64,000 nucleotides of DNA, taken from Amoebophrya sp. A120. Taxonomy: Eukaryota > Protista > Dinoflagellata. The stretch is from the NCBI GenBank assembly GCA_905178155.1, contig CAJINV010000002.1, positions 10,458,146-10,522,145 on the forward strand, read 5' to 3'. How positions within the stretch are numbered: position 1 is the stretch's first letter; the number at the start of each line of letters is the position of its first letter. The notes under the pieces are model-generated. The model was given only the letters and a program-made list of their open reading frames with translations. It ran no database searches and was not told where the DNA came from. The position numbers and the translations under genes are program-made. This document shows positions 13,557 through 58,426 of the stretch, piece by piece.

Positions 13557-16005
13557 TCAGAACTCGCACCAGTGCAAGTTGACGATGTCACTAGTGACGG
13601 ACGACTTCTCCACGGTTGGGAGCTTCAGCAGCCGCACCTGCTTGCACGTGTTTTCGTTAATCAGATCCGCTCCGTGCTCTTTCATCGCCTCGTGCAACGT
13701 CACAGACACCCAAAACCTTTTCTTGCTTGCCGGCATGGATGAAGCTGCACTGCCGACGGTTTGAAACTTCTGCTCCGTGGTGTCGTAGTTGTACTTGAAA
13801 TCGGAGCCAGCCGGTTCCAGCACCTTGAGCGAGTTGGTAATGTTTTCATCTTGGTGCAAAATTATCGTACTGACAGAAAAGGAAAACATGGTCAGGGGAA
13901 CAGCAAATAAATTATTGCGACTTTCAACATGAGAACGCCATTGCTGCAAATCAGAAAAATCACATCATACGTTTCTCATGCTCGCCAGCACCTGGTAGTA
14001 CATTTCGCTCTTCTGAGCAAAGTTGTCTAGCACGCCTTTCTCAAAAACGATGTCAAAATCGTCCAGCCCCAGTTCGAGGGGCTTCGTCGCGTCGAGAACT
14101 TGGTACTTAACTTCCGGGTTGCGTTCCTGCATCAATTTGACCATGGTGTCGGAGATGTCGGTCGCCGTGACGTCGTACCCGAACTTCGCCCGGACGGCCT
14201 CGGGCAGCTTGCTGTTGCCCGAACCCAGCATCAGGATTTTCACATTGGTATTCAGTTTCTTGTTCACCTCGTCGACCGCGCTCTTCGTTTGTTCATCTTG
14301 TTCAGGCTTGTTTCCGTCAGAAGGGGTCGGCGTGGCCGTGGAATAGTGGCGCAATATCGGCCCGTCAGGCCCGAAGAAGTCTTGCATTGTCTTCAGAGGC
14401 TTCGGTAGTTCGCCGCTGTTGTTCGTCAAAAATGCGGTCGTCTCGCTTTTCGATGCCTGCGCTGCGACGATGGTGCTGGCTGCCTCCGCACCGTCAGTGT
14501 TTTTCTTCTCGGACGTAGATGGCATTTTCGCGAATAGTTTTTCCTTGCGATTGTCGTCGATCTCCCCCACTTCCTTCATCGACAGCCGATTGCCGTCTTT
14601 GTCTACCGGGAACGTGTCGTCGTTCATGTCATCTTCTTTCTGGTAGTAGAACGGCCAGGACACCGGCAGGGAGACAAAATCTGTGTCCTCGTATCCTGTG
14701 CAAAAGTATCGCACTCGTAGTAATTGCAATCATGCATTACAAATTTTTTTCTTAAGGTAAATCCGCATTACAAATTTGATTTGCAATGCTGGGCGAATCT
14801 GTAATGCAATTTATACTAGTACGATACTTTTGCATTGCATACCTCGTCGCCGTCGGCGATACTGTCAATCTCCTCTTTCTCGGCCGCGTCAGTTCCCTTG
14901 AGCACCGGGGTGGTGGCGTAGGGGAAGAGTTCTTCATCGGGCGCGAAGTACCACTCGTACACGTTTCCGTTCGTCTGTTGGTACAACTGTTCCCAGTACG
15001 CCGGCTGGTCAAACGTGAACGTGTCCGTCAAGAATTCCTTCATCAGGCCGCTCAACTCCGTTTCCGGGAGCAGAGATTCCTTCTGCACCTTCACGCGAAT
15101 CACGCCCCGGAGCACGGACAGCGCGTTCTGCATCTGGGCCATCAGAGCCTCGGTTTGCTTTCCCGTACCGGAAGCCCACAAAACCTACTTCATTGATTCA
15201 CGACGTCGACTTGTTTGTATTAAAGGGAAGTATAAGAGCAATAGCAAAACAGGAGTCAGTGGACGAAACAAACACAAAGCTAATCCAGGTTGCAATCTAT
15301 AAACGGAAAGACGTCAAAGCAGGTGGGTCCTTTGATGTTTACGAATTCCTCCGCTCTCTTGCCGAACGCCTTCGTGTCCAGCAACAGCGTTTGCAGTTCT
15401 GCCAAAGAGTCCGAGTTCAGCTTCTCGCCGGTGGCAGCGATGACGAGCAGGTCCTCCATCATATGCATTATGAGCTTACGGATCGAGTTGTCCCGACTTC
15501 GCCGGTGGTACGCCACCGCCTCGAAGGGATCGTGCACCTCCGTGTCCACTTTGCCCGTCATCTTGTCCTCAATCCCGGGGTACATGTCGCTGACGTCTGT
15601 TTCGCCCGGCAACTCCGGCGTGTAGCCTTTGAGGCAGTCCAGGTCCTCGTCGCAGGCCCGTTTTTCGGCGCGCTTTTTCTCCTCTCGTTCGATCTTTTCC
15701 GCGAGAGCTTTTTTCTTCTCCTCCGCCGAACTCTTGGATTTTTTCTTTCCGGGCACTGTGCCATTTCCCGACGAACCTTGCGACACCAGGTCGTACACGA
15801 AACCGGAGAAAATGCAAACACCGAGGCCCAAAACAGCAAAGAGCCAGACGGGCGTTTTGGACGCTTGGGACAACTTTTTCGAGGGGTGTTTGGAGCCGAC
15901 AACATCGTAACTCCCAATGTTCAAGCTGCTCCGCTTGCCTTCCGGAGTGCTCAAACTGCTGCGCTTTTCAGCGAACGCCCTGTTCGAATCGGAAACCGAA
16001 GACAT
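13557..16005 (-). CDS. Class I SAM-dependent methyltransferase (EEF1AKMT4/METTL13-like) with N-terminal transmembrane segment
   Basis: Exons from ORFs 15280-16005, 14816-15181, 13965-14729 and 13557-13949. Motifs: YWEQLY...YEWY, ILMLGSGNS (motif I), VTATDIS, YQVLDAT, FDIVFEKGVLD. Hydrophobic stretch VWLFAVLGLGVCIFSGFVY. The 3'-most intron boundary is unresolved. Confidence 0.78.
14692..14841. mobile_element. Introner/MITE-like element E2
   Basis: tatcctgtgcaaaagtatcgcact...agtacgatacttttgcattgcata with perfect TSD cctcg (14687-14691, 14842-14846). Three GCATTACA(A/G)AT motifs inside. Removal restores DGDEDTDF. Confidence 0.9.
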
Positions 16006-36700: not shown

Positions 36701-39371
36701 TTCGGGCTGCGCGAGCGGCTTCGCTCCTCCCGCATCCAGTCCTGAAAATCCCGGCGCTGCTCCCGCAACGCCTGCTCGTGCCTCCGCTTCGCGCCTTCGC
36801 CGAGCCGGGTGAAAAAGCCCCCGTTATTCCCATCGTCGCCGGGACCTCCGTCCGGGTACGGCGTCCCGCGGTCGGGCGAGTGGCTCCGCTTGCGCAGCGG
36901 GGACTGCGAGTTGCGCTCTTTCATAGCCCGCCGCATCTCCCGCTGCTGCTCCCGCCGGATCTTCTCCTGCTTCTCGCGCTGCGCCTGCCCCAGCTGATCA
37001 AACATGTTCATATTGCCCCCGTTGGCGGCGGCAAGTGCTCCGGGGGCAGAGGGTCCTCCGCCACGCCCGCCCCCGGGGTTGATGTTATCTATGAAGAAGT
37101 CGTCGTTCATCAGCATCGGCGAGCCCCCGCTCGCGGCGCTGGCACTCTTCTGCACCGGGCTCCACTCTCCACGCGGTGTTCGCGTCGGGGATTCCGCGAG
37201 CCCACGTTCATCTCTGCGGTTCAGAATCGGGTGCACGCCGCGCCGCTGTTGCTCCTTCATCCGGGCACGCATCTCTTGCTGCTGCTCGCGCTTAATTCGC
37301 ATTTTCTTTTCCTCGTATGTTGCGCCAAGATCCAACAGGCCCCCGCCGCCGCGCCGGCCACCGCGGGCAGAATCTACTTGTTGCTGTTGATGTTGTATTT
37401 GCTCTACTTCCTGCCTGCCATTTGCAGCAGCTCCTGTTGTGCGGGACGAGCTACTCGGTCGGTCGCCGCGCGCAGAACCGCGGCCCCGTAGGTACTCTTG
37501 ATTGACAGGTGGGCGAGCAACTTCGCCAATCATTCTCTCATCATACGCGTCCTGAGCGGAAATCATGTCGCGGCCTGGGAATACGACGGGAGCAACCCGT
37601 GGCTGATCTACGACGTGCGCTTGGTGGTATGGACGCTCGACTTGCGCGGCGGCGGCACGTGGCTTCTTCGGCTTTCCGTACTTGCGGTCGCCCATTTCGT
37701 GCAAAAGCTCTAGTTCCGATTTCTGCGGCGGCGGGCTGCGGGGCTGTGGTTGCGCATTCGTCGTCCTCTCGTCCAAGTAGTTCTCGGCGAGAGGAGGATT
37801 CTCGTTGTACGGCCCAACCGCGCGCGGCTGCTCCCGATACGGCGGCCGCAGGGCCTGGGCCTGCGACGCGGGCGAGGGGGCTCGCGGGGGTGGCTCAAGT
37901 GCGACACCTCGAGCAGCACTGCCCCCGTTGTCGGGGCCGAGGTTGTGCTGCTGCAGATGCTTCTCCCTCTTTTGCCTCCAGACTTCCTCGCGCGACATTT
38001 TGCGCTTCGGCGCGATCATGTCGAATTCCGTGGTGTTGTCGAGCGAGGGGCCACTGTCGGCAGCAGTGTCCGCAGCAAAGACAAACGGAGCTGCATTGGC
38101 GACAAATCCACCCTGATGGTGCGGCGGAGGTTCCATCGGTTCTGCTCGAGGATGTGCTTGTGATGGGAGATTTCGAGGCACTGTAATTCCGTTATTCCCT
38201 TCCATCTGCAGCTCGCGCTCTCGCTGCCGTTCTGCAAGCCGCTCGGCGCGTGTTTTCTTTGCGCCCGTGACTGGCGGCTCGGCACTGACGAGATCGCGAC
38301 CAGGCTTTTGTCCGTTATTCTGCTGCAGCCATGGCGGCGCTGCGTTCTCCTTCTCCTGACCGGGGAGTGCGAAGTCATAGACGGCGTTCTTTTTCGCGAC
38401 GACCTCGGAATCCCCTGGTCCTGCAGTGGGTCCATCATCCTTTTTACTGAACCTGAATAAACACACAACATTCCCAATAAACTCTGGGTACTCCGGGTAG
38501 TGCACAAGCACACTAGTAAAATTAGCGTCGAATTGAATACGGAGCACATGATCCGATGCACTTGATGTTGACATCAGACTAGTCTGAGACGAGGAGCGCG
38601 TCCCATTAGAGGCCGTACAAGAGTTTTTTCAGTCCTAACACGACTGATCAAAGCCTCCATCTTCGTATCATACAACACGGATGCTTGTGCAAATAATTTG
38701 TATACGCTCTCGGCGCGCCCTGCGGATTGCTTTCCTGGGGCCCAAGCCTCGGCACCGGGACCACGACGGTCGGCTTCGACACTACCAGTCGCTGTTCGTC
38801 CCGCAGTTGCTGCTCGAGATTTGAAATATGGCGCTGTTTTTGACTAGCCAGCACTTCAGCTTCCAAGTCGCCCATGTCATACTGCTGCAGCAACACTTTG
38901 TGCACGGATTTTGCCTCCTTCAGTTCCTCTTCGAGCTTCTGAACTTTCCGCTGCTGCTATCGGGTAGAAACACACTAAGTAGTACGGTATCATATTTGGC
39001 GCGCGCCACGAGATTAGGATCATCAGATGCTGCTTACCATGAAGACTTCTATCTATTAATAGAAGCTTCCATACTTAAATGTATCCGCACAGATGAAGAG
39101 ACAGCTACAAAGACGGATGACAGACTGATGTATGCGATCATAGAGTCATTCTCCAACTTGCGCGGCAAATGTGATGCAGGCTACGGAGATTTCTGTACGA
39201 TAGCTGCACCTGCTCGTTCAGATGGTTGTGCAACTGGCTCTCTACGACGCGGTCCGTCGCCACACGGCGACTCGCTTGCGCACGTCGCATGATCGTTGTT
39301 TCTTGGCCCGCTAAGAATGGTACGTCGGCGAAGTCCGATTTTTCCTGCGGGACCAGACGCTGGTTGTACAC
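24713..39371 (-). CDS. Giant (~4,700 aa) protein: N-terminal coiled coils (CSPP1/CCDC66-like) followed by two repeat arrays
   Basis: 4404-codon ORF 25360-38574. It joins ORF 24713-25189 through a GT-AG intron (about 25213-25367) and joins upstream exons (about 38706-38957 and 39210-39371) with compatible phases. The start codon is unresolved. Confidence 0.8.
26235..27710 (-). repeat. Second protein repeat array, consensus (F/Y)xP(I/V)PExL(Y/F)xxxxxGx
   Basis: FEPIPEQLYVRDARGNYSRVP, YVPVPEELYYKNSAREYVPIPPERF, FSKIPDERFLLNEETNSYEQIP, FLRIPEDTF. Confidence 0.75.
28240..34590 (-). repeat. About 27 copies of a 45-60-aa protein repeat, consensus LQRxGADFVAxDGxxVxPxxLxxFGGEVLDxxGxxVxVxP
   Basis: Counted by eye in the translation, e.g. 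LQRVGCDFVAADKSLVAPATLAMFGGEVLDERGRRVSV and LQRNGTDFVAVDGSQVPAKKLIVFGGEVLDIDGRAVSV. Confidence 0.9.
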
Positions 39372-39672: not shown

Positions 39673-42600
39673 TCACGACTCACACAAGTATTTTTTCTCT
39701 CGTGATGCGGCTTTTACTTTTTGAAAAACTTTCATTCGCTGAGCGCAACTCCGGAAGAAAAAAGAATCACTCATACCCAAAAATGGCTGGTTTTTGCCCT
39801 CAACGCCACGAAGAAGACAACTACGGGAACGGCTCCCGCAACGAATTCGACGCAGTAAAGAAGCGAAGAGGAAGAGGACTTTTGAGAAATCATTGCAGCT
39901 CTTAGACACGGTCATGGTCATCGTCATGTCCTTGGCTACTTCTGTGAGCGCGCCTGAAGTTGATTGTGGTTGCAGCCTCGAAGGACGTACATTCTCTTGT
40001 TTATGTTTTCGACCGTCCTTACTGGCGCTCGCAGTTCCAAATGGAAAAGCGAAGTTCGGCTCTGGTTCCACCCCACTAGTGCGCGTTTGGCTCTTTCCTG
40101 CAGCGACCTCGCTGGTGTAGTGCTCAAGATTCCCAAAGGCAGCTTTTCTAAGCCCACGCACCGACGCTCTGCGCCGACGAAAGCTTTCTTCATTCTGGAC
40201 CAGTGGCGGCACGAGACTGGCGCAGGTAGGTCGAAACTTTCGGAAAGCACCCAGCACGTGCTGCACGTCCTTGACCGGCACGTCCAGCACATAACCTTGG
40301 GTCGACAGCGCAATCCTGCCCACGCGACGGATCAATGCGTTGGCTCGGTGCTCCGACGCCGTGCGCATTTCTGTGCCGTCCGACGCCGTGGTGCTGAAAA
40401 TGTCGTCTCCTAATGTTGTGTCGTGACCATCATTTTTAAAATCTCCGAATGGTTGAAAATTTCTCTTCCCCCCGGCCGATCCTTCCTGCGAAGAGGGCAG
40501 GAAATACTGGTGCAGTTCCTTCTGCAGCAGCACAAGCAGGCGCTGGCGACTTGTGGACGTGCTGGTCGTGTTCCGCAACAACACCGGCACATACGACGGA
40601 CGACCAGAGAGTGGGGACATCCACCTCACCTGTGTCTGTCGTGTCTCGAGTACGCACAAAGCTCGAGAAAGCAGTTCGATTCGCTTCTGTTGGCAGTCGG
40701 TCCGAAAAGGATCGTCTTCGGAAGAACGTCGTGCACGACTAGATGGTGCAGCCAAAGCCGCAGCATTGGTGTTCTTCCGAGCAACATCTTGCTCTTTCAC
40801 GCTTGCTGCTTTCCCTCCGATGATTCTGGTACACGCACGCGCCGTCGTCACGACGTCGAGACCGAGGGCCTCGCGACACTGGAAAAAGAGCTGCTGAACC
40901 CGTTGCAGCCGCATCGTTTCCGGCGTCGGCAGGGCCAAGTCTTCAAAGCCGATGCCGAGCTTTCGGCCGAGGCGGTGGTGGGGTGCGAAAGTCGAAGAAG
41001 ACCAAGACGTGCTCCCTTGCCAAAGAGGAAGACCGCTAGAAGTTCTTCCCGCAGCGGTGGTGGATGATCTCGGAGTCGAAGAAGAAAGCAGAACTACGCT
41101 TTTGCCTGTGTCACCTCGAATCCGCCCAACGCGGTGGACGTACGTTTCCGCAGAGGGCAACCGCTGCAGCAACATGCCTCTCCTGTGGTTCTTCCCCGCG
41201 TGCGAATACTCCATAGCAAGTTTGGGAACATGCACCACCAGTGTCACGTTGTCAAAGTCAAGTCCGCGGGCGGCCAGGTCGGTGGCAACCAGCACGGTGA
41301 CGTCGCCCTCGCGAAATGCCTGCACCGTCGCGGCCCGCTCGGCGTCCGTTTGCGCGGCGTTCAATTGACACACACCCAGTGCCTGCGTCCGCGCAGAACC
41401 CTGCAGCGTGTGCGTCACAAGATCGCAATCACTGCGCGTTGCAGCGAAGATGATTGCTTTGCTCTTTCGCAGCTGCGGCTTTTCTGTGCTGTGATAGGTC
41501 GTGTGGTGTGCTGCAGCAGAGCGCTGAGATGTTTCCGGCGCCAAGTTTTCTTGCAGTAGCCAAGAGAGAACGTCCCCAATATTCTTTGTTGACGGAATGC
41601 TTTTGCCATTCTTCGTCTCGCCTACCAGTGTCAGTGTGCAGTGATGTACATTTTGCTTTTGGGCGAAAAATTGCGGAACAGAGGTACCCGCCACCGTGTC
41701 GCTGATTTCAGACAAGCGGTCCGCGCAGCAATGCTCGCGCAAAACATCCCGCAGCCAGGGGGGTGAGGTGGCCGAGAAGAACAGAAACTGCAATTTGTTA
41801 TCTTGCGAATTGTTCATCTTCCGGACCGCTCTTCCATCACCAACCCCTTGCTGCACAGGTTCGAGTTTCGGGTTTTTCTGCGCTTCTTCTACACGAAGTC
41901 GTGTGTTGTTGGGCCCTATCCGCCACTTGAGGGTTTGCGCGGATTTGATGTGCGATAGCAGCTCCGTCATCTCCGAGGCAAAGCCGGACCCTGCATCAAA
42001 CATTTGGTCGGCCTCGTCGAACATGTCAAAATCAAAAAGACTGCCTCCCCATAGGCAAAAACTAAAACAGCTTTGGTAGTTTTATATATAATTATACGTG
42101 CAATTCATTGCAGAGAACAACGAATGCAAACGCAAACGGCGGACGCAACCTAATAGTCGGCTCGCTTGTAAACTACCACAAAAATCCGCATCAGATATCT
42201 GCGCTATCTTGTTGCAAGGAGAGACGCGATTTTATCGTCAGGATAGACAACCAGGATTCGGCAGTTCTGCAATGCAGTATACACGTTGGCCTTTACAAGC
42301 TCCAGCAGGAATTGCGGCGTCGAGATCACCACGTCGTGTCCTTCGCGGAGAAGTCTCTTAGTGTACAAAAACTTGTCCGCGCTGGGTGGATTCTTGGGTG
42401 TATCTGCTTTTCTTCTCGTCTCACCACTATCGCCCACCTGCCCGGCGCACGAGATGGTAGAACTTCTGGTCAGCAGCAACAATCTTTGCTCGCTGTGCTT
42501 CAACTTCATGGCTTCGAACCGTGTTTGCTCGGCCAACTCAGGCGTGGGGCACAGCCACAGAACCGGCTCGTGCCCAAAGAGTGAACGACTACTCGTGTCC

Positions 42601-43229
42601 CCGAAGAACTGATTTTTCCCAGTCCGTCTGCCGCTCGAGCTGGTGCTGGCCTGCTCGTCTGCTGCCGGCTTGCAATCGCCTATTCTCCTCATAACTGCCG
42701 TGCGGTCCAACACGGGCGCCAAGAAGGCTACCGTCTTTCCCGTTCCTGGGGCGGCGCGGGCCAATACGTCGAATCCACGCAGGACGCATGGAAAGGCCTG
42801 CTTTTGAATGGGCGTCAGGGGATAGTAGCGATGCCTGCGCAACCGGTCCTGCATCCTCGGCGACAGTTGCGGTTCACGTGTGCGACCGTCATCTTCGGGG
42901 GATTGGGCACTCTCGGTTGTACCAGCACCGGGTGAAGTGCGCAAAAGTCCAGCATTGCGGCTGCTTTTCAAAAACATGTTCTTGTTTCCACCGTTTCGGC
43001 GGGCATCGGAAACGCGAAGGCCCGACCTGCGTGCCCGCCTTCTTCGTATCTTTTTCTCACAACGGAAGGACGAGGCAAAGAGGAGAGAACGAACAGAAAT
43101 GCAGAACGGCAGTGGCCGGGTCGTGGTGGACGTTTCTGACAAATTTCGTAGAAATGCAGACGTCACTGGAAGCAGTGCTCCAGCTACGCCTGCAATCGAC
43201 GGCGAGCTCGTGGATAGGGGCGGCATCAC
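39673..43229 (-). CDS. DEAD-box RNA helicase, possibly DDX21/RH7-like with a GUCT-like C-terminus
   Basis: Q motif LTPIQ, motif I APGTGKT, Ia CPTPELAEQ, II LV(V/F)DEAD across an intron, III SAT, V ATDLAARGLD, VI YVHRVGR. C-terminal VGRIALSTQGYVLDVP is GUCT-like. The start is uncertain (ATG of MFLKSSR at about 42977 is plausible). Confidence 0.88.
42024..42245. mobile_element. Degenerate introner-like intron E3 immediately before the DEAD motif
   Basis: Transcript-sense ends TAT...ACA; flanks ttgtc/tgttc (3/5). Removal of the element plus 5 nt gives ILVVDEAD or ILVFDEAD. No GT-AG pair restores the motif, and TIRs are no longer evident. Confidence 0.6.
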
Positions 43230-43824
43230 TGCGCGATTACGAGTTTGTCCTTGTTGTCGCTCTAAACTTGTTCTAAACTACTTAAAAGCGCACTATTTCA
43301 ACTCCAACTGGCTTTTCTTGCCCGACAGGAGGTGGAATGCTGAACTTTCAGGCAGGTGCAGGAAGAGAGCCGTCAGGGATCAGCGGAACCCATGTTCATT
43401 CTTTTTTCGTCCGCTCGATCTCTGTCCTCCTCGCCGTCGCAGCGGTGCCGGTGGATCTAAGAGCACCATAGGCATAAATATGCGGACCAACACTAGACCT
43501 CAACGATCAATGGTGAAGATCTTGTGTGATCTCTTGGCATTTGCTCGATAATGGCAGCTATCCAATGCAACAGAGCTTGTCCGTGTAGACCTTCGAACCT
43601 TGCCTGGGGCACGTTGACGAGATGAAAACTTGAACACCTGCCCGAAAAAAATCAACTACGCATGGCAGCATCCTGCCAAAAGTGACGTCAGCGTCACCCA
43701 CCGCGTGCTTCATGTTGAAGCTTTATTTTCTCAACGCAACGTCTGGGCACAGTTTGTGTTCAAGAAGCACAACTTGCATGATCAAGAATGCAGCAACATG
43801 TGTGCGGTCCCGAGTGTACTCCGT

Positions 43825-44902
43825 TCACCACCGACCGCGTCTTTTTGCGGGTCCTCCCCGATTCTTGGGAAATCGCTCCTTCTTAAGAAAGTTTTCCACG
43901 TCGCGGTTCCTTTCTTCGTCCACATTCGCTGCTACATCATCTTCCCGCGGCTCCTGACGGCGCCGGCCGTGCCTGTTCTTCGGGGACGACGAATATGCAC
44001 TCGACATATGTCACAAGATGTCTGAATCTGGAATGAATGATGCGACACGAAAAAAACTCGCATGCACAACCAGCAGCTTGTGACATATAATTTGCAAGAA
44101 TGGATAACGAAGGCTCCTCTACATCCATTTCCTCTTCCGCCGCACGTTCATCTTCCACTTCTCCCCGCTTGCTACTGCTGCTCGCCCCACCATGATGACC
44201 AGTATTGTTCCCCTGCTCTCCTCCGCCGGTCGCGGGGGTCGGAGGCGCGTCTGCTTTCCCGATGGGTATGTGGAAACGGCTCTGCTCTACGCAGAGCAAT
44301 CGATTTGCGGGGTCCGACGGACGAATCCGGGTGTCGTGGAGCGCGAGCGCCTTCTCGAACGACACCTCGTCGCAGAACCGCACGACGCCCTGGCCTCGGG
44401 ACCGCCCGTGGGGGTCCAGGAACAGTTTGAAGTGGCTCACGGGACCGCAGTGGCGGAGGAAAAACTCCATCAGCTCGGCCTCCGTGTACTTGAAGGGGAC
44501 GTTGCTGAAGAACACGGAAGTGTGCACGCGCTTGCGCTCCGCAGCGACAAGAGGGTCCTTCAGCCGCACCCCCGTGGCGTACAGCTGGTGCCGCTCGTTG
44601 CGTGCCAACTGGCCGTAGTACACCTCGTCGCCCTCGCGAATGTCCAGCTCCGGGTCGTCCAGGTCGTGGCAGTGCACGAAAATCTGGCACCCGTGCTCGT
44701 TGTACAGCTTATCGCTCTCGATGTAGCCGTAGCCCTTCTTCTCCATCCACCGGACGACACGCGCGACGTCTCGAACCTTCCCAGAGGGACCCGGGACGAG
44801 CTTGGCCTTTTTAGGCAGCACGCCATCGGGCGGATTCGCGCTGTGACTGCTGGAGGACGAGGAGGGCGCAGCAGCTGCCGCTGCAGCCGACGTCAACGTC
44901 AT
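43825..44902 (-). CDS. Cold-shock domain + RRM RNA-binding protein
   Basis: CSD: VVRWMEKKGYGYI...IFVH...EGDEVYY...ATGV. RRM: VFFSNVPF...RSRGQGVVRF. The last exon is ORF 43825-44007, reached by removing element E4. Confidence 0.85.
43994..44106. mobile_element. Introner/MITE-like element E4
   Basis: TAT...ATA ends with perfect TSD acgaa (43989-43993, 44107-44111) and inner inverted repeat atatgtcacaag/cttgtgacatat. Removal gives EEPSSSPKNR in the frame of the terminal exon. Confidence 0.85.
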
Positions 44903-47020: not shown

Positions 47021-50000
47021 TCACCACTCCAGATTTAGTGACTTCAGCTGGCACTCCACCTTTTGAAGGTCGATTTTTGCCTTCGCCCGCTTGTAGAAGA
47101 TGGGGCAATCGGAGTTGGCGCAGATCACCTCTTGATGCAAACTGTCCTGACACCTTTGGCACTCCGTCCAGAGCCGCTGAAACTCAATCTGCTTCTCCCG
47201 GACTTCGGTCAGCTTCTCAAAGTAGATCTCCGGACCTTTGTCCTTCATGCAGTACTTGCAGAGCGCCAAGTCCTGCTGCTCCGACCCCTCTTTCTGTGTC
47301 ACCATGGCGACGGTACTTGGCTGTGGAATTTAGTTTAGTGAATGTCATGAGCTTTTTGGTTTGCAAGAGCAAGGTGAAAGAATGAGATTTGACCATAAAT
47401 CCTTTGTTCTTGGCGCACATGAACTGCTCACACCACAAGCATTCAGTAATCAGTTTTTGATATAATGGTATCAGGGACAGATCAATCGAAGGAGTATTGC
47501 AGTTTGTTCTAGCTCTACGTGGTCTCTACTGCCATGGAGTTCCACGAAGTCGGACTCGGAGGCCGCATAAAGATCTTCGTTCAGGACGATAAAGACCACG
47601 GATTTGGATCCCGGACCTTGACATTAACGAGCGCAAACGCTATAGTACCTTCAGGGTAGTCTTGCAACCGAGGCACTTTTTCGCAATGGTGACCTTCGCT
47701 CCGTCGCCAAATCCGAATTGGTTTGTGTTTTGGACCGCGGACTGAACGATTTTGCGGGTGTGATCGCCAGTGAACAGCTTCTGACTCGCGTTCGGCATGA
47801 TGGGGTCAAAAATGCGCAGCAACGGGTTGGCCAGCTGGTGGTCAATGTACCAGTGGGCGTCAATGGCCAATCCGTTTTCCAGCACATACATGGGATCTTC
47901 GCTCTTCTCGTAGTGGCATCACCAGAAAAAGTGTTCACGCTACCAGCTGCGTTGCGCTACTTGACGCGCTGCTTTCCTACATCAAGCCAAAAATGACAAA
48001 ACTCAGCCATCAGAAACTTTGCATGCTAAGCAAATATACCACCATAAACATAATATTTCGCATTATTTGAAACAGCATTTTCCAATCTTGTAGATATCGT
48101 GAACACTTCTTGCCGTGATAAATTGGCCGTCTTTTTCATGCTTTTCACTATTACGTAGGGGACCCGGTCACCGGCGCCGGGCGCTGTTGCTGGGTTGCGC
48201 TGCCGCATGCGTTCCGCGAGCTCCACGTGGGCCTGCTTCGCGGCGTACTCGTCTCGGCCCAGGGACTTGGAAATCACGAGCAGTGCGAGGTCCACCTTGT
48301 TCTGCAGCAGGTCGGACACAGATTGCTGCACGAAACCGATGGCCTGATTATAAAGTGAGTATCACCACTTTTTTTTTGGATCGGCGAGACGAGTATGGTG
48401 CATTCTATTTCTATGTACGAGTACTACATCAATAGAAAAATTCGGCCAGAAATACCATAGTACCTTCTCCTTACTGCGGTCAATGAGCAGGCACTTCAGT
48501 GCGGTGTCGACAACGCGCTGTACGAGCCCGCAGTTGTCGCGGCGGACCGTCTCAATGCCCTTTGTGTCCATTTTGTCGTACTTATCCGGATTGGTCCAGT
48601 ACAGGCCTGCGTACCGCTTTTTTGCGAGCAGCAAATACGGAAAGTAGACTTTCTCGAACTCCAGCTTAATCGGCTTGAGAAACGTGGCGGAAATTTTGTC
48701 CGCGGCCTTCAGGCCGAGGTCCATGGACTCCTTTACGGTGTCCGGGCCAAACTTCACCATCACAGAATCCGTGTCGCCATAGATTACCTCGGCATCGTGC
48801 TTGTATCCGTTCGCAATCGTGAACTCCCTGTTTTTTTCGTTTATTCTCACTTTATCCATATCTTCGTCGATCTCGGTAATCCATTATCATGACATCAAAC
48901 TGCATTTTTGCAATCGGTGATTCAAACGCTTTCTTCATCAACTCCTTGATTTTTGCCATGATTTGATTTCGAAAATCCAAGTGTTGTATCATTCTAGAAG
49001 AAAAACGGCAGCTGTACTGTTGCACAAGGTCGCGGGTTTGTTCGATCATGGTCCTGCCGAAAGCGGTGACAGAGGAGGAGATTTCCAGGCAGGGCATCAT
49101 GCCCACCTGCGCACCGGTGAAGCCGTACACACTGTTCGCGCTGATTTTCAGTGCCAGCTGCCGCCCGTTCAGGACCGCCTTCTTGAATGGATCCTGCTCC
49201 GCGTTCATCTCTTTTTTTGCGCGTTTCCTCGCCCCCAGAAGGTCCTCCAGGATCAGCGGCAACAGCCCCTTTCGCTTCGTAGGCTTCACGAAGTAGTTAC
49301 CGCAGGGTGTCACGGTGTAGTCGTCCTCGCTCATGTTCTCCACCTTCCCCGTGCTGGGTTTTATCAGACTGTTGGGGATCAGGGTGCAGTAACACAAATT
49401 GTGCGCCATCATGATCGAGGGGTACAGCGAGGCGAAATCCAGCGTGGCGATCGGTTTGTCGTAGAAATCCGTTTTCGGGTCCAGCACCGTGGCCCCCTCG
49501 AACTGGTCCCCGGTCTGTTCAACCTTGCGCGCCGGGGCGATGTAGCCGGACTCGCGCGCGCGCCGCAGGATTTGCCCGAACACCTTGATCGCCTGCCCCC
49601 GGAACTATCCAATGTGAAAACCCAAGCAAAAACTTAACATATCTTTATCTTCTGCCGTGCAAAATTACAAATTACTTGCGGCCATGATTGCGCAAAACCG
49701 AACAAGGAGAAACTTCTAGATCTATTACGTAATGCGGCCGCACTGCGGCAGCACGTCGACGCTGGCCCCTGTGGGGCGCCACATGCATGCGTGACTTGGA
49801 AAAGTTATCGGTTGCTGCACTAATAATAACGAGTATTTTTGCGTTTTCCCACTGGATAGAAAAAGCAGGAAATTCAACGGCGTGCCGGTGACGCGGGCCA
49901 TCTCAACGTAGTTGTAGAGGCAACAGAGCTTCTCGAGCAGTCGCAGGGGCAGCTTCGCGTCCTTCAGACAGTAGACCCCGAGCCGGCGGCGCGTCTCCGC

Positions 50001-52735
50001 CGTCCCTGTGTGCAGTGTGCCGATCATGCTGTAGTGCACGTCCTCCTTCTGGTCGCCCAGAAAGTGGGAAGACACGAAGTTCAGCGTGTAGGACCGCAGG
50101 TTGTGCTCCTTGGTGATTACGGTGTACATGTCGAAGATGATCCGCCCGTCGCACTTCACCTCCTTCTGCGGCCGCCCGTTCGGCGTGGTCCACTCGCGGA
50201 TGCGGGATATTACAATGAAAAATGCCCCCTCCCCATATCAAAACGGAAATCTGTGATGCAGATTTGTGGTCACAAATTTGTGATGCTAGAAGGCAAAAGA
50301 TGCGGACTGTAGTGCTGTCTAGCGTGGGAAAGCCTTGCAGCTCCAGGATGACAGGAGACAACTGGAAGTGGGAAACAGCATGACAGATTACCTGCAATTT
50401 AGGCCGCAGCTTCGTCTCTTGGCCTTCTAGCAATACAAGTTGATTTGTGTACTCAAATACAGCATCACAAATTCGCGCATCTTCCGTTTCCGATATGGGG
50501 TGGGGGCTTTTTTCACTTTGATACGGGACTGCACCTTCGCGAGGCGGCCCAGCTCGGCGAACTCCGGGATGTCGAGGGCGGCGGCCCGCTTGAGCAAGTA
50601 GGTATGGCGTTCTCAACTGTTACATTCTCAACTGTTACATGAATTTGTCATGCATACCCGACTGCACCACATCAAAAACCTTTGCACCGTCGCCGCAAGC
50701 AGCTTCGGACGCAGGAGATCTAGGGTCAGAAATACGGAAATACGGAATTTGTCATGCAAAAACAGAAATACGGAAAGGGACAAGCTTGCAAGTCTTGCAT
50801 CACAAATTGGGTACAGATTTAGATGCTGTTTAGCCCTTCGATAATTTGTCATGCGAAGCAGCTTGATCTTCTTGCAGCTCATGGTCATTTTGCATGACAA
50901 ATCATGTAACAGTTGAGAATGTAACATTTGAGAACGCCATAGTAGGGCAGATCGAAGTTGAGAATGTTGTACCCGGTGAGGAAATCGGCGTCGATGGCGA
51001 CCACGAATTTGGAAAAGGACACGAGCAGGTCCCGCTCGTCCGTGAACGAAAGGACAATCGTGTCCGCGATGTCTCTATCCACAGAAAAAAACCCATCCAC
51101 ATCCATTTTTTGCATGACAAACACATGATTTGATACGTGTTTTGCATCACAAATTGGATGTGGATGGGTTTTTTTCTGTGAATAGTCTCCGCAGCTGTCC
51201 AGCGTCCAGATCACCTGCGCGAACGCGGGCCCGTCGGCCCCCACGCACTTCACTTCCGCGGCGATCTGGATCACCGGGTTGCGCTCGGCTTCGGGAAACC
51301 CTTTGCCGAACTGGTTCCAACACTCGATATCGAAACTCAAAATCCGCAGCGGGGCGAAGGCATTCTGGTCGGAGGCAGGCTCCACGGACTTGTAGAAAAC
51401 ATCCAGCTCGATCTGGCACGTACCTGAGCGGAAAGGATTCGAAAAACTAAAACCTCCAAGCAACACTCTTTCGTACCAGCACACAGGTATAGTTGTATAC
51501 CTTCTATTTTTCTTGATCTAACTATCTATCTACTTTTGAAGGAAAAAGGCGAAGATTTATCTACTTTTCTTGCAGATCTATCGAAATCGATGCCTGAACT
51601 CTAGTAAAATAGAATCAAAAGAACGGCGCCTTTCTCGCGTACCGACGCGCTCGTCCGGGTTGGTCCGCAGTTTGTACATGCAGGGGGCGAGCGACACCCA
51701 GGACCCGCCGCCAAGCCCCTGGTCTACCAGAAACCGCAGGACGAAGGGCACGTTGGTTTCAAAGGTACCGAAGCCGGTGTACATCCCACCCCCCACGAGT
51801 TGAAAGCCCGTCTCGATGGCGGTGCGTGCGGCTTGGACCAGGCGCTGCACGCCCACGTGCACCTTGTAGTAGGACCGCAGTCCGTTCTCCGACCACTCCA
51901 TGACGTTGGTCTTCTGCACGATCTCCACGGACAGGACGTTTTTGTTCAGGCCGATGGCTACCCGGGACTGCCGCAACTGCGCCTCCAGGGACTCCTGGAA
52001 CACCTTCGCGTCCGGGATCGTGCCCCCACTCACTTGCTGCACGGGGCAGTAGAAGTAGGGGCAGAACCCGTGGATGTGAGCCAGCACGGAGTGGCCCTCG
52101 GGCGTCACGCCGTACATGCGCAGGATGGGTACCTCGGGGTTGGGACTGTCCTTCAGAAACACCGGGTGGGGCCGGCCCTGGTAGTCGTCCAGGTCCACCT
52201 GCATGAAGGTCAAGGGCTTGGTCGCAAAGTACGCGTCTACCGCCGCGGGGGGAGGGGGCGGCGGTGCGGAGGACGAGGACGATGCGGAGGCGCCCGTGAT
52301 TGGCAGGAGCGGTCGCGCGCTGCTGGCCGCGGCTGCCGCTCCATTTGATGAAGTAGAAGACGGTCCTGCGGGTGCACCAGCTGCGGCGTTGGAGCTGGAG
52401 GAACTTGCTGCGTTACTGCTACTGCTGGTCGTAGTTCCACCACCACTAGCTGCAGTCACCATGCTGGACCCGACAAGCGGTCGCTTCCATTGCTCGTAGT
52501 CAATTTTCTTGGGCTCTTTCACGATGTTCGTGCTGTCCTTCAGTTCCACATGGACCAGGCTGCTGGACGACGATGCCGCCGCGGCGCCGCCCAAACCTTC
52601 AGACGTGCCCTCCAGCAGCTGCTCGTCATCGGTTCGAAGCCGTTTCGCTGGCGGGCCGTGGCGACTCTGCTGATCCCGGATGTCCTGCTCAATCAGAGCG
52701 TCGATGTCATCGTCAAAATCAATGTTATCCTCCAT
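47021..52735 (-). CDS. POLD1: DNA polymerase delta catalytic subunit, 10 exons
   Basis: ExoI SFDIEC, Exo[14 protein letters not shown], Exo[49 protein letters not shown], CysA CLGC...CKYC, CysB CQRC...CANSDC. GT-AG introns: 51424-51642, 48828-49017, 48344-48463, about 47294-47648. The five other introns are introners E5-E9. Confidence 0.98.
47917..48120. mobile_element. Aged introner E5 in POLD1
   Basis: Arms catcaccagaaaaagtgttcacg versus reverse-complement tatcacggcaagaagtgttcacg; flanks agtgg/aattg (3/5). Removal of the element plus 5 nt gives KTANYEKSEDP or [11 protein letters not shown]. Confidence 0.78.
49606..49858. mobile_element. Introner E6 in POLD1
   Basis: Arms tatccaatgtgaaaac versus reverse-complement tatccagtgggaaaac; flanks ggaac/gaaaa. 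Removal of the element plus 5 nt gives the conserved [11 protein letters not shown]. Confidence 0.85.
50208..50523. mobile_element. Introner E7 in POLD1
   Basis: About 41-bp imperfect TIR (tattacaatgaaaaatgccccctccccatatc... versus tatcaaagtgaaaaaagcccccaccccatatc...), perfect TSD cggga (50203-50207, 50524-50528), four internal motif copies. Removal gives VQSRIREW. Confidence 0.92.
50603..50941. mobile_element. Introner E8 in POLD1
   Basis: 40-bp TIR tatggcgttctcaa(c/a)tgttacattctcaactgttacatga (39/40), perfect TSD gtagg (50598-50602, 50942-50946), five motif copies. Removal restores ExoII NFDLPYLLKRA. Confidence 0.95.
51076..51184. mobile_element. Introner E9 in POLD1 (near-palindromic, in-frame)
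   Basis: 30-bp TIR tat(c/t)cacagaaaaaaacccatccacatcca (29/30), perfect TSD gtctc (51071-51075, 51185-51189), two motif copies. Removal gives [16 protein letters not shown]. Confidence 0.95.
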
Positions 52736-53691
52736 TTTTCTTTGTAATCTTAAATGAGTAAATGCAACAATACCCTTACCTGCTACAGAACTTTTACGCG
52801 CGTGATTACACGGAGCGAGAAGTGGGTGAATCGGTATCGGTCAGATTTACTACACGTCACAAAACATTACATCATATTCAATCTCCAACGAACTATGGCG
52901 TTCCCCTTTTTGAAGGGGGTATAGTATCTATCAGTAGGGTGGCGAGAACGTGAATTCAAACAGAAAAACGTCGCGTGTCGCTGATACAACAAGGTTCCGC
53001 AAGATTATTTCATGCGAACGACAGATACTTTGGTCCAGGAAGGGCGGAAAAGTAAAACCACACTTGTTTGGGGAGCAGTAGCACTGCGAACAATGAGTAA
53101 ACAGATTTTTATTTCCATCCAGCACAATCGAAAGAATCATTCATCTGATTCTGCACTTTCGCTACCACGGCACCTTGTGTGCCACGAGGAACTGGCGCTG
53201 GTCCGCGTCTTTTTTGCGAAAAGAATGACGACGCGAGCGGGCTTCTTGGGATTTTTGTTTTTCCCCTAAGCCATGAACAACAATAAACCTCCAGCAGTGC
53301 GCCCTACTGTGGCGCTCTTGTTTGAATTGAATTGAATGGTGGCAGCGTGACTATCTTTTATTTGCGTCTTCCCACTCCATGTCGATTGTGCTGCACAACA
53401 TGTTTTTTTCATGTGGAAATTTGGAATAGTTGGACTGACACGGAAGCAGAACGGCGTAGCTTTGTAAGCGCCTTTATTTCGACGAGTCATTAGGAATAAA
53501 AACAATCTACTAGGAAACTAGGGGCTACGGGGATGTAAAACTTGAGCCTCCGCAACAATGTGGAGATGTTTGTTCTGCAAGCACTCTATGTGTATGACTT
53601 TCTTAGATACAAGATGCGTTCTTTGGATCTGCAGTACGCCATTCTTGACTGACTCAAGGTAAGTGAGATCTATCGCGCGTCGCCGTGATCT

Positions 53692-54616
53692 TTACCAGTA
53701 TCCTCCCTTCCCCTTCCCCTTTCCTTTTCCCTTGTACGCGTATCCACTCTCGTAGTAGCTTTGGTGGACCATCACCGGTGAATGCAGGACTATGGGCTTT
53801 GGTCCGCGCTGAGAACCCCAGCCCTCGTCGCCATAGGTACGCGCATCCCACAAACAGAGGTGGTAACAGTTAAGGACTTCCCAGAGGATGTGAAGAAATA
53901 TCATGATTAACCAGCCTGTGGCAAGCACAGCAACGTTGGGGTAGGAGATACAGCAGCACCAATAGAGCCAGGTCCAGTTGTGCAGGAGGTGCAAACAGAA
54001 CTCGGTTTTGCACGCTGGGGAATCCATCCCATCGAAGTTCGCCCTTATCACACTGAAAACTTCCCCTACAACCCTAAGGTGTGCTGGAAGTGCTTGGCCT
54101 GCAAAGTTTCCCTAGGCAACATTTTTGTCTACTTGATGTACAAATCTAAATTTTGATTTACGAGGACACTGAAATACAGGGCGCACAGATGATGTGTCAT
54201 AACATGTTGGAGCTGCGCGAAACATACCAGCCTAGATTTAAAACAAACGCGGCTCATCCTGTTTATGCAAGATGTTTTTTTTTATGCAAGACAAAGAAAC
54301 AGCATGTGAAAACGTTTTACGGATGAAAAACATCACCAACTTTCACTTTCTTGGGGCTGCGGGGAACTTTTCAGTTATGATAACTGTCAGACACACGCCC
54401 GTGCAACAAGCGCCGTTGCAATAACACGCAAGACAACGGACGATTGCATTCGGTTGCCAATACCGGTGACCACCCAAACATCCGAACTCGCCCAAATCCC
54501 GTCCGCGTCTGGGATCCGACCAGCACCGGTCGATAGCTAAAACAGCCGGCATAGTTTCTGGAATGCGAAAATGTCTTTGTCATCGATAAACTATACGAGC
54601 ACCATGGAAAATGCAC
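53692..54616 (-). CDS. Possible Cys-rich membrane protein with a KGKGKGKG tail
   Basis: ORF 53692-54051 has hydrophobic segments and ends ...YAYKGKGKGKGKGGYW*. An upstream Cys-rich block lies at 54343-54552. The exon structure is not resolved. Confidence 0.4.
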
Positions 54617-56052
54617 TTCGTTTGTATGTCACACTACTGAGGGGAACAATTACTGAGGATAACTACATGACCTAAGGCGTTTTTGTACTAGTGTGCGAAG
54701 TTGCCTATGAATGAGCATGGTGGGCAACAAATTTGGAAAGACTTTTATGAGGTTACGGCTCTCATACGTACTATGGGGTGTGTGCCAGTTGTGAATTCTA
54801 GTATTGCGCGTGCATTGGGGTCACAAAGAAGCCTGGTGACGTCGTGCATAAAATCCATCATCGAACTTCCTTTCGCTGCAGCGTTTCTCCTCGTTTCTGC
54901 GTTCCTCTATATCATTCTGTAATATGGTCTCGTTTGGACTGCTACTTTAATAAAGGACGAATGGTGCACGATAAATCCGAAGTATTTCTTTGCACGAATA
55001 CCGATGTTGCGCATCATTCAAACAGAAATCAGATGAACGTCAGTATCGATCACATAGGCATAGCGTTGTTCGACTTCACACACATGAGAATGTTGTAAGA
55101 AAGGGAAGGGGCTCTGGTGTAGAAGTTCACTTCGATTTATGAGGAAGAAAGATGAAGATCGCACTCGCATAGTAGGGAAAGATATCGTTGACAACCATTA
55201 CAGAACCGAACCGGAGCTGAAGAGTGCTATATTAAAGCAGTACCGACGTCTCGCGTTTTTAATCCTTTTTACTAGCTGCGGATGGGAAGTGCTCGTCTTC
55301 ACCTACATCTTAAAACCCAGCGACTCACAATGGAATCGTTGGGGAAGGGCTCTTCATATCCCAACACGAAAACCGATGGCCTTACGGGAAATATAGCATA
55401 ATGTTTACACAGCGCACTATACGCAATTATCGTTTGGAAGGCACGAGTCACAGAAGGAACGCCAGGGCATGCCACCGATCATCAGCAACAATGACATTGC
55501 TCTGGATGAAAAAGTTCCTTTTCGTTCGGATGCGTTCTTGTTGTAGAACGATGTTTATTACTTGGGGCAATTCTGAAAACGACAGAGGATGATCATTCTG
55601 TCAAGAAACCAAGGCAAAGATCATACAGATCGCAAGGCTAATAGCAGCGCAGAAGTCACGACTTCACTACAAACGCCATACAGAGGAATGTGCTCGTGAG
55701 ATTCGTTGCTTGAGATGGGACTCCATCTTCGAAAATCCGGTGAGGATCCCCATTTGAACCAGCACCGAGTTTTGATTTTTCGTGTCTCCGGCTTCTCCCG
55801 CGACCTCCAAAGCGCGCTGGTAGTAGGTTATGCCTGAGAGATAAGTGAATTTTTTTCAATTTCAAAATGAAAATAGTTGCGATTGATGTAGTTTTTGAGT
55901 AGCAGCTGCGATAAAGATACTTGATTTGACAGCAACCAAGCGCAAAAACAACCAACTTAAAAAAAATCGAAAAAAGATCGACTTCGAAGTACTTACATAT
56001 TCCGCATGCGATTGCGGTTGCGATCGCATCAACAAAGCAGAAACCAATCGTA

Positions 56053-57702
56053 TCAAAAAAAAAGGAAACCTTTTTCATAGTCTTTTTCCGCGGAGACGCA
56101 CAGAGTTCCGAGCTTCTTCAACGCGTTCGAATTGTCGTGGTGCAGCGTGTCGCAAAGCTGCACGTAGCGCTCGATCAGCGCCCTCATTTTTGTGGGATCC
56201 TGTTCATAGGAGCTGTCACTGGAACCTATCGCCAGGTTGCCAATAGCGAGGGACTGCCCCTCTACGCTGTGCAACTGCAAAGCAAATTGAAGGGCATACC
56301 TGTAAGTATTTTTGTATGTAAGTAATATGTTGAGTTTTGTATATTCTGGCATGTGCGTCGGCTTTGTGTGCTTGTTGTGCTGGCAAGGTCGCGAAAGCGA
56401 ATCCCATCTCGACGAACAACCCGCAGGCACAGTAGCTCTTAATAAGGTATCGTCTTTCTATTTTTTCTAAACGAATGTGTCAAACTTTACTGATGATTCA
56501 GCGTGGCCGCTTCCTTCTCCCCGAGCAGGTCGTAGCAGAGCCCCAAGTTCGCGTGTGCGATGAATTTTCCCACTGAGTCTGCGATTTTTCGGTGCTTGTT
56601 GTGGAAGTACAGCGCGGTCTTCAGCTGGTTCGTCTTGCTCGCGCCCGCATCCGCTGGCTGCGGGTGGTCTCCGACTCCTGAGGACGATGAAGATTTCGTT
56701 CCCAGAATCTGGTGCGTCGCGGCCAGGGAGTGGTACGCGAGCGCTTGGCCTTGCTTGTCCTCGCAGTCGCGGCAAATCTTCAGGAAGTCGTTATAGTACC
56801 GCAGCCCCTTCGTGTACTCCTTCAGATTGTCATGCAGCACGGCAAGACTGAAGCAACACCGACCCTCTTCCCGCAATTTTCCGCTACGGCGGCACGCCGA
56901 AAGAAGGAGCTCCAAGTCGCTTATTTTCTTCAGAGTGAAGTATCGTTCCTCCGCTGTGGGGTCGGCCTGTTGCAGTCATAATTGCATGAGTTACGATTTC
57001 TCTAATACATTCAGCAACAGATCCACAGTTGTAGATGTAGGCTAACAAACTCAATACATACGAACATGGAGCCTTGGCTCACTACTTCTACTGTAATTTT
57101 CTTTTAGTACATCTTAGAATCTTATCTTGTCCCATCTGAAGGTCAAGCTCAAGGTTACAGCTATTAAGCATAAAGACACTTCTGGAACACTGAATAAGTA
57201 CCCCGTCATCCTTTCGGTCGGGGGTGTTCAGGTACGCCGGTAGTTTCACCCGCAACACCGTCCAGTTCGTTTGCATTCTGGTTGGCGGGTCCCGATCGCG
57301 ATCGAGGGACCCCAACAGCGAACCGCTGTTGTTACCGCCGCGGCTTTGCAGGCCGCCCCGAGATTTCGGCAAACTGTAGTGGTTCGGCTTCTGCTTGTCC
57401 GAGGAAAAAAGCAGGCTCCCGCCGGGAGTCGTGCCCGGGCGTAGCTGGAGCGAACTGCTGCTACTACTCGAGCGGCCCTGGCCGTGCTGCGATTCGAAGC
57501 TTCGCTCCAACGAATCCTGTTGCGACAGGTTATGCCTTGGAAAAATCGCGTTGGACTGGTTCATGTGGAAGGGGGACCGCATGCGCCCGTCGAACAGTTT
57601 CTGGTTTAGACTCAAACGGGCCGCCCGACTTCCGCCGGGCGTCGTCTGCGCCCGGGAAGCCGGGCGCTCTGCAGTACCGAGCAACGCTCTCGGAGGTGCC
57701 AT
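56053..57702 (-). CDS. Tetratricopeptide-repeat protein (TTC29/TTC28-like repeats); 3' end uncertain
   Basis: Three exons joined by GT-AG introns. TPR-like EGRCCFSLAVLHDNLKEYTKGLRYY, QALAYHSLAATHQ, FIAHANLGLCYDLLGE, QSLAIGNL, ALKKLGTLC. Confidence 0.75.
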
Positions 57703-58426
57703 TTTTCTTTTCTAGAGAAATTTTCGATGCTTTCAGGTGCTTGAATTCTTTCTACTTCACATCGATTTTTGTGCCCTTGACTTCTCCTCTCTTTATTTTC
57801 GTGCTATGCATAGGCGTGCAGCAAAGTGGTTGCACGACGAAAATTGATTGCCTACAGCTAATAGATCGTTCACTGTATGTGTATTGTCAAAAATTTGAAA
57901 CGCGATCGCCCCCTGGCTCGACCCAATAGATGAAACAACAAACCGAGCTGAGCAAAACGAAGTAGACAAATGACTTCCACTGCTCATCCTTGAGACGATT
58001 GCGAAAATACGCTCGACGAGCTTCGTGCCACCGCTCGCGTTCTTCTCAACGACTATATTTTTCGTTTCGATGAGTGATGAAACAACGACCCACGAGATGT
58101 GACAGAAGGACAAGGATCGACCATTACTACGCTAGCCTAAAAAGAATTGGGATTGTATCCGGACGCGGACCAACGATTGAGAGCGCGCAGGCGTTCGAGA
58201 ACACAGAAACAGAAGCACGGATCTGCCTCCATATTAGAAGCAGAACGACACCAGCTGCGGCCTCATTTTGTGACGTGGGTGTTGATGACACCAGAGAGAG
58301 GTGGTATGTTCGCGTTTGGTCTGCTGGTCAACGAACGCGTGCGCTGGCATGCGCGGTCGGGAGGATATCGGAAATCGCGACAAGCTACTAATACATGATT
58401 TAGTTCTTCCTGTCCGACACTAGAGC

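What the first reader, a model, noticed from the sequence alone, without database searches (positions are those of the whole stretch)
47912..51189. Non-canonical splicing appears obligatory for an essential gene
Seen: for E5-E9 in POLD1 (and E3, E4, E10 elsewhere), no position within the 5-bp repeat gives GT-AG. In transcript sense E8 (repeat CCTAC) has neither GT nor AG, E7 and E4 offer only GT, and E6 and E9 offer only AG. The same gene also has four ordinary GT-AG introns. POLD1 keeps all catalytic and Cys motifs, so it does not look like a pseudogene. Inference: a second mode of splice-site definition operates here, possibly guided by a hairpin that brings the two direct repeats together, alongside normal spliceosomal splicing.
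Basis: partly seen in the sequence, partly recalled or inferred. Interest (0 to 1): 0.85.

Follow-up and report, generated by a model that had tools for sequence, protein, structure and literature searches.

The report
Transposon introns spliced without GT-AG
Five transposon-like inserts in a DNA polymerase gene of the marine parasite Amoebophrya lack normal splice signals yet are missing exactly from transcript assemblies; this intron class is already published, and the cut likely falls at a fixed spot one base before each hairpin.

Summary
The gene is POLD1 of Amoebophrya sp. A120 (exon 100% identical). E5-E9 are TAT...ATA hairpin elements flanked by 5-bp repeats. None offers GT-AG in any register. 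All five are absent from spliced transcript-like contigs and present in the DNA-like run. Paralogue, nearby GT/GC-AG sites and DNA excision are not supported. These are the 'introner elements' published for this strain (PMC7789003), so the phenomenon is known; the mechanism is still open.

Corrections: E6 uses neither GT nor AG; retaining E9 creates no stop; two elements elsewhere (likely E3/E4) are GT-AG on the coding strand.

Added here: two elements with diverged repeats (E6, 54046-54382) share only one possible cut, 1 nt before the 5' TAT and 4 nt after the 3' ATA. That makes every donor N-UAU, close to the GUAC of 8 of 11 canonical donors here. All 9 top A120 non-canonical motifs in the paper's Table S4 have T at +2. 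I favour a relaxed spliceosome guided by the terminal stem (0.55). The scan noted similar introns in other genomes, none in this one.

The parts
47021..52735 (-). POLD1 (DNA polymerase delta catalytic subunit), 10 coding exons, 1203 aa
   Evidence: Spliced model translates to exactly P0001; Pfam DNA_pol_B, exo1, zf-C4pol; transcript-like contigs of 3901 and 4061 nt
51076..51184 (-). E9 introner, 109 nt, repeat GAGAC/GAGAC; 114 nt removed; CT..GA at the -1 register
   Evidence: X3 depth bin 9.31 observed vs 9.33 predicted if removed; fold z -12.8
50603..50941 (-). E8 introner, 339 nt, repeat CCTAC/CCTAC; 344 nt removed; CT..TA at -1
   Evidence: 437-nt record gap fits in two runs; fold z -10.1; 87 and 85 DNA-run contigs leave the window exactly at its ends
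50208..50523 (-). E7 introner, 316 nt, repeat TCCCG/TCCCG; 321 nt removed; GT..CC at -1
   Evidence: transcript piece ends at 50202; fold z -8.6
49606..49858 (-). E6 introner, 253 nt, diverged repeat TTTTC/GTTCC; 258 nt removed; cut at register 0 or -1 (TA..CC or CT..TC)
   Evidence: X3 pieces 49859-50202 and 49017-49600 are contiguous with 0 differences; X6 piece also ends at 49600
47917..48120 (-). E5 introner, 204 nt, diverged repeat CAATT/CCACT; 209 nt removed; TT..AC at -1 (registers 0 to -3 fit the protein)
   Evidence: depth bin 8.78/10.3 observed vs 8.80/10.34 predicted
51424..51642 (-). canonical GT-AG intron, donor GTAC
48828..49017 (-). canonical GT-AG intron, donor GTAC
48344..48463 (-). 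canonical GT-AG intron, donor GTAC
47321..47648 (-). canonical GT-AG intron, donor GTAC
54046..54382 (-). introner in a neighbouring 172-aa gene, diverged repeat ACAGT/AGGGC; 342 nt removed; cut at register -1 or -2 (TT..GG or GT..GG)
   Evidence: joint 54041->54384 in X3 and X6 with 1 ambiguous base; strand from the ORF spanning the joint and P0121
5101..5363 (-). same class of element, repeat AAAGG/GAAGG; GT..AG at the -1 register
   Evidence: not checked against RNA
14692..14841 (-). same class of element, repeat CGAGG/CGAGG; GT..AG at the -1 register
   Evidence: not checked against RNA
38958..39202 (-). same class of element, repeat GCAGC/GCAGC; CT..AG at -1 (a GT..AG 253 nt long is also possible by eye)
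   Evidence: not checked against RNA

Best explanation
E5-E9 are MITE-like introner elements (TAT...ATA inverted ends, 5-bp duplication) that are missing exactly from POLD1 transcript assemblies, and they are likely cut out of the pre-mRNA by a relaxed major spliceosome at an inferred fixed register, one base before the 5' TAT and four bases after the 3' ATA. Shown: element anatomy, absence of GT-AG, removal of the element plus one repeat's length, presence in DNA, other copies with other flanks. Inferred: DNA-transposon origin with a 5-bp target duplication; one register for all elements; the donor is read as N-U-A-U, so +2U and +3A are kept and only +1 is free; the acceptor is set by distance from the terminal stem rather than by AG; the catalyst is the U2/U6 spliceosome of a strain in which U1 was not detected. 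Because the element itself supplies U-A-U at both ends, any insertion in either orientation would be spliceable and leave the coding sequence unchanged.
For: Removal: X3 record 9 and X6 record 12 leave 437 nt between 51638 and 50202, equal to the three predicted exons. Depth fits within 0.05 in 8 of 11 bins for X3 and 8 of 11 for X6. Of the six misses, five lie over multi-copy E7-E9 and one X3 bin is 2.0 too high, unexplained. Junction windows are colinear with homologues: E9 91 of 92, E8 92 of 92, E6 92 of 92, E5 89 of 91; E7 only 3 of 92 (variable loop). Register: E6 allows only 0 or -1; the 54046 element only -1 or -2 (P0121 reads LTAN). E6 ignores an in-frame AG 3 nt upstream of its acceptor. 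All 9 top A120 non-canonical motifs in Table S4 have T at +2; about 0.29 each is expected under a random register (rough). Spliceosome: 8 of 11 canonical donors here are GTAC and 9 of 9 elements give NTAT. 2 of 9 elements are GT..AG and 3 of 9 end in AG at -1 (P 0.01 and 0.02, post hoc). 6 of the 9 Table S4 motifs keep GT or AG, whereas hybrids are rare in Euglena, where that rarity is taken to mean two machines. In yeast, U(+2) pairs with U6 A51. U2, U4, U5, U6 and 83 of 89 proteins were found in A120, U1 was not.
Against: The register rests on two elements, each leaving two options, and assumes one common register. The paper's Fig. 3 legend calls the sites 'variable' relative to the hairpin. 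The 54046 element also fits a GT donor at -2. Table S4's nine motifs cover only about 20 of the 65 percentage points, and aligners favour GT or AG when placement is ambiguous. The yeast P complex needs G(+1)-G(-1) and branch-A/A(-2) pairs, which E5-E9 mostly lack. U+2 is buried in the stem. No branch point is evident; the invariant A at -7 is at or under the 7-9 nt spacing described. No lariat or circle data. The 9 elements were picked by eye from 97 loose candidates. The transcript-like runs are one study (two samples), RNA by inference, and may not be independent of P0001's annotation.
Confidence: 0.55

Rival explanations
1. A separate, non-spliceosomal hairpin-guided cut-and-ligate system removes the elements, as proposed for euglenid nonconventional introns.
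For: All five elements pair their ends (6-12 of the first 12 nt) while the four canonical introns pair 0-2. The older E5 and E6 have weak overall folds (z -1.2, -1.9) but keep the terminal stem in the centroid. +1, -1 and -2 vary freely. U1 not detected. Euglena uses a fixed spacer from a CAG-CTG stem and releases circles. A fixed register fits this model equally well.
Against: Excess of GT..AG and ..AG at the -1 register; many hybrid motifs in Table S4; NTAT resembles the local GTAC donor; about 21% of repeat-bearing introns are GT-AG by my rough arithmetic on the paper's percentages versus 3.8% expected (open to false repeats and aligner bias).
Confidence: 0.33
2. The elements are excised from DNA in the expressing life stage, so mRNA never contains them.
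For: They look like TIR DNA transposons. Logan contigs drop rare variants, and the stage of the DNA-like run is unknown.
Against: X1 has one 0-difference contig over 47000-50233 (through E5, E6 and 26 nt into E7) and another from 51155 (30 nt inside E9), at flat depth 24-26. Element copies with flanks occur in the transcript-like run X3 (9 contigs loose at 50603, 5 at 50941). X1 may be the source of the window, so it is not independent.
Confidence: 0.05
3. The junctions are reverse-transcriptase template switches across hairpins flanked by direct repeats.
For: Direct repeats plus secondary structure favour this artefact (PMC4176328); all RNA evidence here is presumably cDNA.
Against: E6 and the 54046 element have only 1 nt of identity at the joint. 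The main contig lacks all five elements in both samples. Retention of E5-E8 would truncate a replicative polymerase with no second copy seen.
Confidence: 0.04
4. An intact paralogue supplies the mRNA, or nearby GT/GC-AG sites are used.
For: No genome was available to search. In-frame GT/GC..AG pairs exist within 40 nt (9 to 20 per element).
Against: Shown transcript pieces have 0 differences from this locus; DNA depth is flat over exons and introns. Same-length pairs: 0 for E6-E9, 1 for E5, which gives a stop.
Confidence: 0.02

Closest known systems
Introner elements among the non-canonical introns of Amoebophrya sp. A120 (Farhat et al. 2021, PMC7789003)
   Same: Same strain; inverted repeats of 8-20 nt starting TAT with an A-run; 3-5 nt direct repeats (5 bp in Fig. 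S19 legend); hairpins; genes with both intron types; RNA-seq support.
   Different: Nothing in kind. The paper's text leaves the border 'unknown' or 'variable'; here two diverged repeats narrow it to -1. Its figures (3, S19, S21, S23) could not be seen and may already show this.
Euglenid nonconventional introns (PMC12501133; review PMC11282704)
   Same: No GT-AG, terminal stem, repeats at the junction, coexistence with spliceosomal introns, fixed spacing from the stem.
   Different: Signature is N3CDG...CH'GN5-6|R, not N-TAT...ATA-N4; hybrids are rare there; circles are reported there and untested here.
Fritillaria borealis non-canonical introns (PMC13326754 abstract; PMC11282704)
   Same: MITE-derived with TIR and TSD; reported to be removed by a modified U2 spliceosome, which is the model favoured here.
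   Different: Dominant AG-AC/AG-AT ends, U1 kept, duplicated U2AF; A120 ends are far more varied and U1 was not detected.
Introners of algae and core dinoflagellates (PMC9860276, PMC12130899)
   Same: TIR/TSD DNA-transposon origin; splice sites partly recruited from the duplication; no change in mRNA length.
   Different: Those mostly build GT/GC/GA..AG ends; these tolerate any +1, -2 and -1.

Membership tests
Amoebophrya A120 introner elements | Host is Amoebophrya sp. A120 | tested here: met
   P0001 and P0121 are 100% identical and named A120
Amoebophrya A120 introner elements | 8-20 nt inverted repeat at intron ends, starting TAT with an A-run | tested here: met
   E5's 3' end is ATG; definition
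Amoebophrya A120 introner elements | 3-5 nt direct repeat over the exon/intron border | tested here: met
   5 of 5 in E7-E9, 3 of 5 in E5 and E6
Amoebophrya A120 introner elements | Non-GT-AG intron supported by RNA | tested here: met
Amoebophrya A120 introner elements | Repeated elsewhere in the genome | tested here: met
   Met for E7-E9 (contigs with other flanks at exact ends). E5 and E6 show single-copy depth at 90% likeness, which would make them the paper's 'singleton' kind
U2-type spliceosomal introns | GT/GC..AG ends | tested here: not met
   this lowers 'is a canonical intron', not 'is removed by the spliceosome'
U2-type spliceosomal introns | Lariat with 2'-5' branch; dependence on U2/U6/Prp8 | not testable with these tools
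   no raw reads on the locus; no such data in searches
U12-type introns | AT..AC or GT..AG with U11/U12 consensus | tested here: not met
   no register of E5-E9 gives AT..AC; minor snRNAs reported absent
Euglenid nonconventional introns | N3CDG ... CH'GN5-6|R signature | tested here: not met
   ends are N-TAT...ATA-N4 (against abstract); by inspection
Euglenid nonconventional introns | Excised as full-length circles | not testable with these tools
   no data
MITE / non-autonomous TIR transposon | TIR, TSD, short, non-coding, multi-copy | tested here: met
MITE / non-autonomous TIR transposon | Cognate autonomous transposase | not tested
   no genome held; PMC7789003 found none in A120, PMC12130899 reports TIR elements with integrase-like ORFs

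The most novel reading that the evidence does not exclude
Amoebophrya A120 runs a spliceosome without U1 whose only sequence demand is N-U-A-Y at the donor. The transposon's own inverted end supplies U-A-U at +2 to +4, the terminal stem fixes the acceptor 4 nt past ATA regardless of AG, and the 'diverse' splice sites collapse to one code, N|NTAT...ATANNNN|N. Any insertion in either orientation is then spliced without a trace.
Probability: 0.4. Interest if true: 0.7.

Novelty: already known. Interest (0 to 1): 0.38.

Why it matters
The phenomenon is published for this strain, so the locus itself is a clean example rather than a discovery: five non-canonical introns in a core replication gene, four of them required by reading frame. 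What is still open is how they are cut. A fixed -1 register would turn 'no splicing signature' into a single rule, correct intron borders genome-wide, explain how thousands of insertions are tolerated, and tell experimenters where to look for a lariat or a circle. It can be tested at once on public RNA and genome data.

Tried and rejected
No whole genome is held, so a second POLD1, variant snRNAs and a transposase were not searched. Rfam found 0 matches in the window. The run search listed no holder on record as RNA; X3 and X6 are taken as RNA because their contigs skip GT-AG introns. One search showed 15 of 70 joints and 24 of 5034 pieces, so no joint row for E5-E9 was seen: E6 and E7 come from piece ends, E5, E8 and E9 from length and depth arithmetic, and E5's register stays open. 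The 3901-nt total was fitted at the 3' end and is not evidence. The TIR scan is not enriched without the repeat filter (20 hits vs mean 20.1 in shuffles). 59621-60066 rejected as an intron. Two searches for an annotated protein of the helicase at 39.7-43.3 kb, meant to give a third register point, found none. Roy et al. 2023 is not held and was not read. A branch A at -7 was considered and left as speculation.

Full report
Identity. The exon 49014-49604 (minus strand) matches yeast and human polymerase delta structures and is 100% identical over 99% of its length to P0001, a 1203-aa protein named Amoebophrya sp. A120. A second gene in the window is also 100% identical to an A120 protein. Mapping P0001 to the window gives ten exons and nine introns: four GT-AG and five without (E5-E9).

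Anatomy. Each element starts TAT and ends ATA (ATG in E5), with an A-run about 10-14 nt in, and sits between 5-bp repeats. The removed length is always element plus 5: 114, 344, 321, 258, 209 nt. No register 0 to -5 gives GT..AG. E7-E9 fold far better than shuffles (z -8.6, -10.1, -12.8). E5 and E6, whose repeats have diverged, fold weakly overall (z -1.2, -1.9) but keep the terminal stem. The canonical introns pair 0-2 of their first 12 nt with the 3' end. E7, E8, E9 and 5101-5363 share internal motifs.

RNA. Four runs were laid. X3 and X6 (one study, two samples, RNA by inference since they skip GT-AG introns) each hold a single spliced POLD1 contig. In X3 the pieces 49859-50202, 49017-49600 and 48463-48826 are contiguous with 0 differences. 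Both runs leave 437 nt between 51638 and 50202, exactly the three exons left after removing one canonical intron, E9, E8 and E7. Depth fits the model within 0.05 in 8 of 11 bins for each run, including the E5 bin in both and the E9 bin in X3. Five misses lie over multi-copy elements and one X3 bin is 2.0 too high. The model translates to exactly P0001, which may rest on the same RNA data.

DNA. X1 (DNA by inference, possibly the window's own source) gives one unbroken contig over 47000-50233 and another from 51155, at depth 24-26 over exons and introns alike. 87, 85 and 37 contigs leave the window exactly at 50603, 50941 and 51076, so E8 and E9 have copies with other flanks; summed depth is not a copy number. 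This argues against an intronless paralogue and against DNA excision in that sample; rare variants would be missed.

Alternatives. Within 40 nt there are 9, 12, 20, 18 and 18 in-frame GT/GC..AG pairs for E9-E5, but none of the right length for E6-E9 and one for E5, which meets a stop. Retaining E5, E6, E7 or E8 truncates the protein; retaining E9 adds 38 residues without a stop.

Register. E6's repeats are TTTTC and GTTCC. The pieces end at 49600 and 49859, so the 5' copy is kept through at least position 4: register 0 or -1. The TT..AG option, and an in-frame AG 3 nt upstream, are not used in the main contig. The element at 54046-54382 (ACAGT/AGGGC) has a displayed joint 54041->54384 in both runs with one ambiguous base; its gene is on the minus strand, so the register is -1 or -2. 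Only -1 fits both. At -1 the nine elements read CT..GA, CT..TA, GT..CC, CT..TC, TT..AC, GT..AG, GT..AG, CT..AG, TT..GG. The nine were chosen by eye from 97 loose candidates. Independently, all nine predominant A120 non-canonical motifs in Table S4 of PMC7789003 have T second, though they cover only about 20 of 65 points and aligner bias is possible. Two data points do not prove a rule.

Mechanism. I favour a relaxed U2/U6 spliceosome (0.55). Donors become NTAT, against GTAC in 8 of 11 canonical introns seen here (one of the 11 inferred from a loose end). GT..AG and ..AG are over-represented at -1 (P 0.01 and 0.02, post hoc). Hybrid ends are common in A120 but rare in Euglena. U(+2) is the donor base that pairs with U6 A51 in yeast. 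Against it: the G-G and A-A pairs that dock the yeast acceptor are missing, the donor is buried in a stem, and no branch point is evident. A separate hairpin-guided ligase route stays at 0.33.

Known status. PMC7789003 describes exactly these elements in this strain: over 60% non-canonical introns, TAT-starting inverted repeats, 3-5-nt direct repeats, hairpins, mixed genes, U1 undetected, mechanism unknown, border 'unknown'. I found no statement of a fixed register and no lariat data in searches. The library lacks most subscription journals, and the paper's figures (3, S19-S25) are pictures I could not see; they may bear on this.

What I read. PMC7789003: abstract, passages, sections 10, 11, 12, 16, 25, 32, supplement legends and Table S4 rows. 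PMC11282704: passages and section 6. PMC12501133: abstract and Discussion. PMC13326754: abstract and a term search. PMC12130899, PMC9860276, PMC11453091, PMC4176328, 10.1101/2024.09.05.611473, 10.1101/212811: passages only. Roy et al. 2023: nothing.

Verdict. The class is already known; the register is a modest, testable addition. Interest 0.38.

Noticed in passing
window, 11 canonical introns in 47321-61236: Donor is GTAC in 8 of 11, all 11 end in CAG, and the 3' ends are A-rich with little pyrimidine tract.
   Followed up: partly
window 60015-61236: Likely GT-AG intron of about 1.2 kb (from a loose end) holding a multi-copy repeat near 60060-60500; X3 and X9 show a poly(T) loose end at 60303, as of a polyadenylated repeat transcript or retro-copy.
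   Followed up: no
window 25360-38628: Open frame of 4422 codons on the minus strand with internal repeats and no apparent intron.
   Followed up: no
window 44005-44089: AT-rich hairpin with TAT-like ends inside an open frame; possibly a decayed, in-frame element.
   Followed up: no
window 39673-43277: DEAD-box helicase split near 42204-42081 by an interruption whose borders I could not place; no annotated protein found.
   Followed up: partly
window 51419-51643: The first canonical POLD1 intron has a 7-position sliding repeat (GGTACG at both ends) and weakly complementary ends; possibly an old insertion.
   Followed up: no
window 50208-51184: DNA-run contigs join the end of E8 directly to the start of E9 or E7 (joints 50941->51076, 50942->50208), suggesting tandem or chimeric copies elsewhere.
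   Followed up: no
whole window: 10 of 14 open frames of 330 codons or more lie on the minus strand, and every gene examined does, in line with the unidirectional gene clusters reported for this genus.
   Followed up: no
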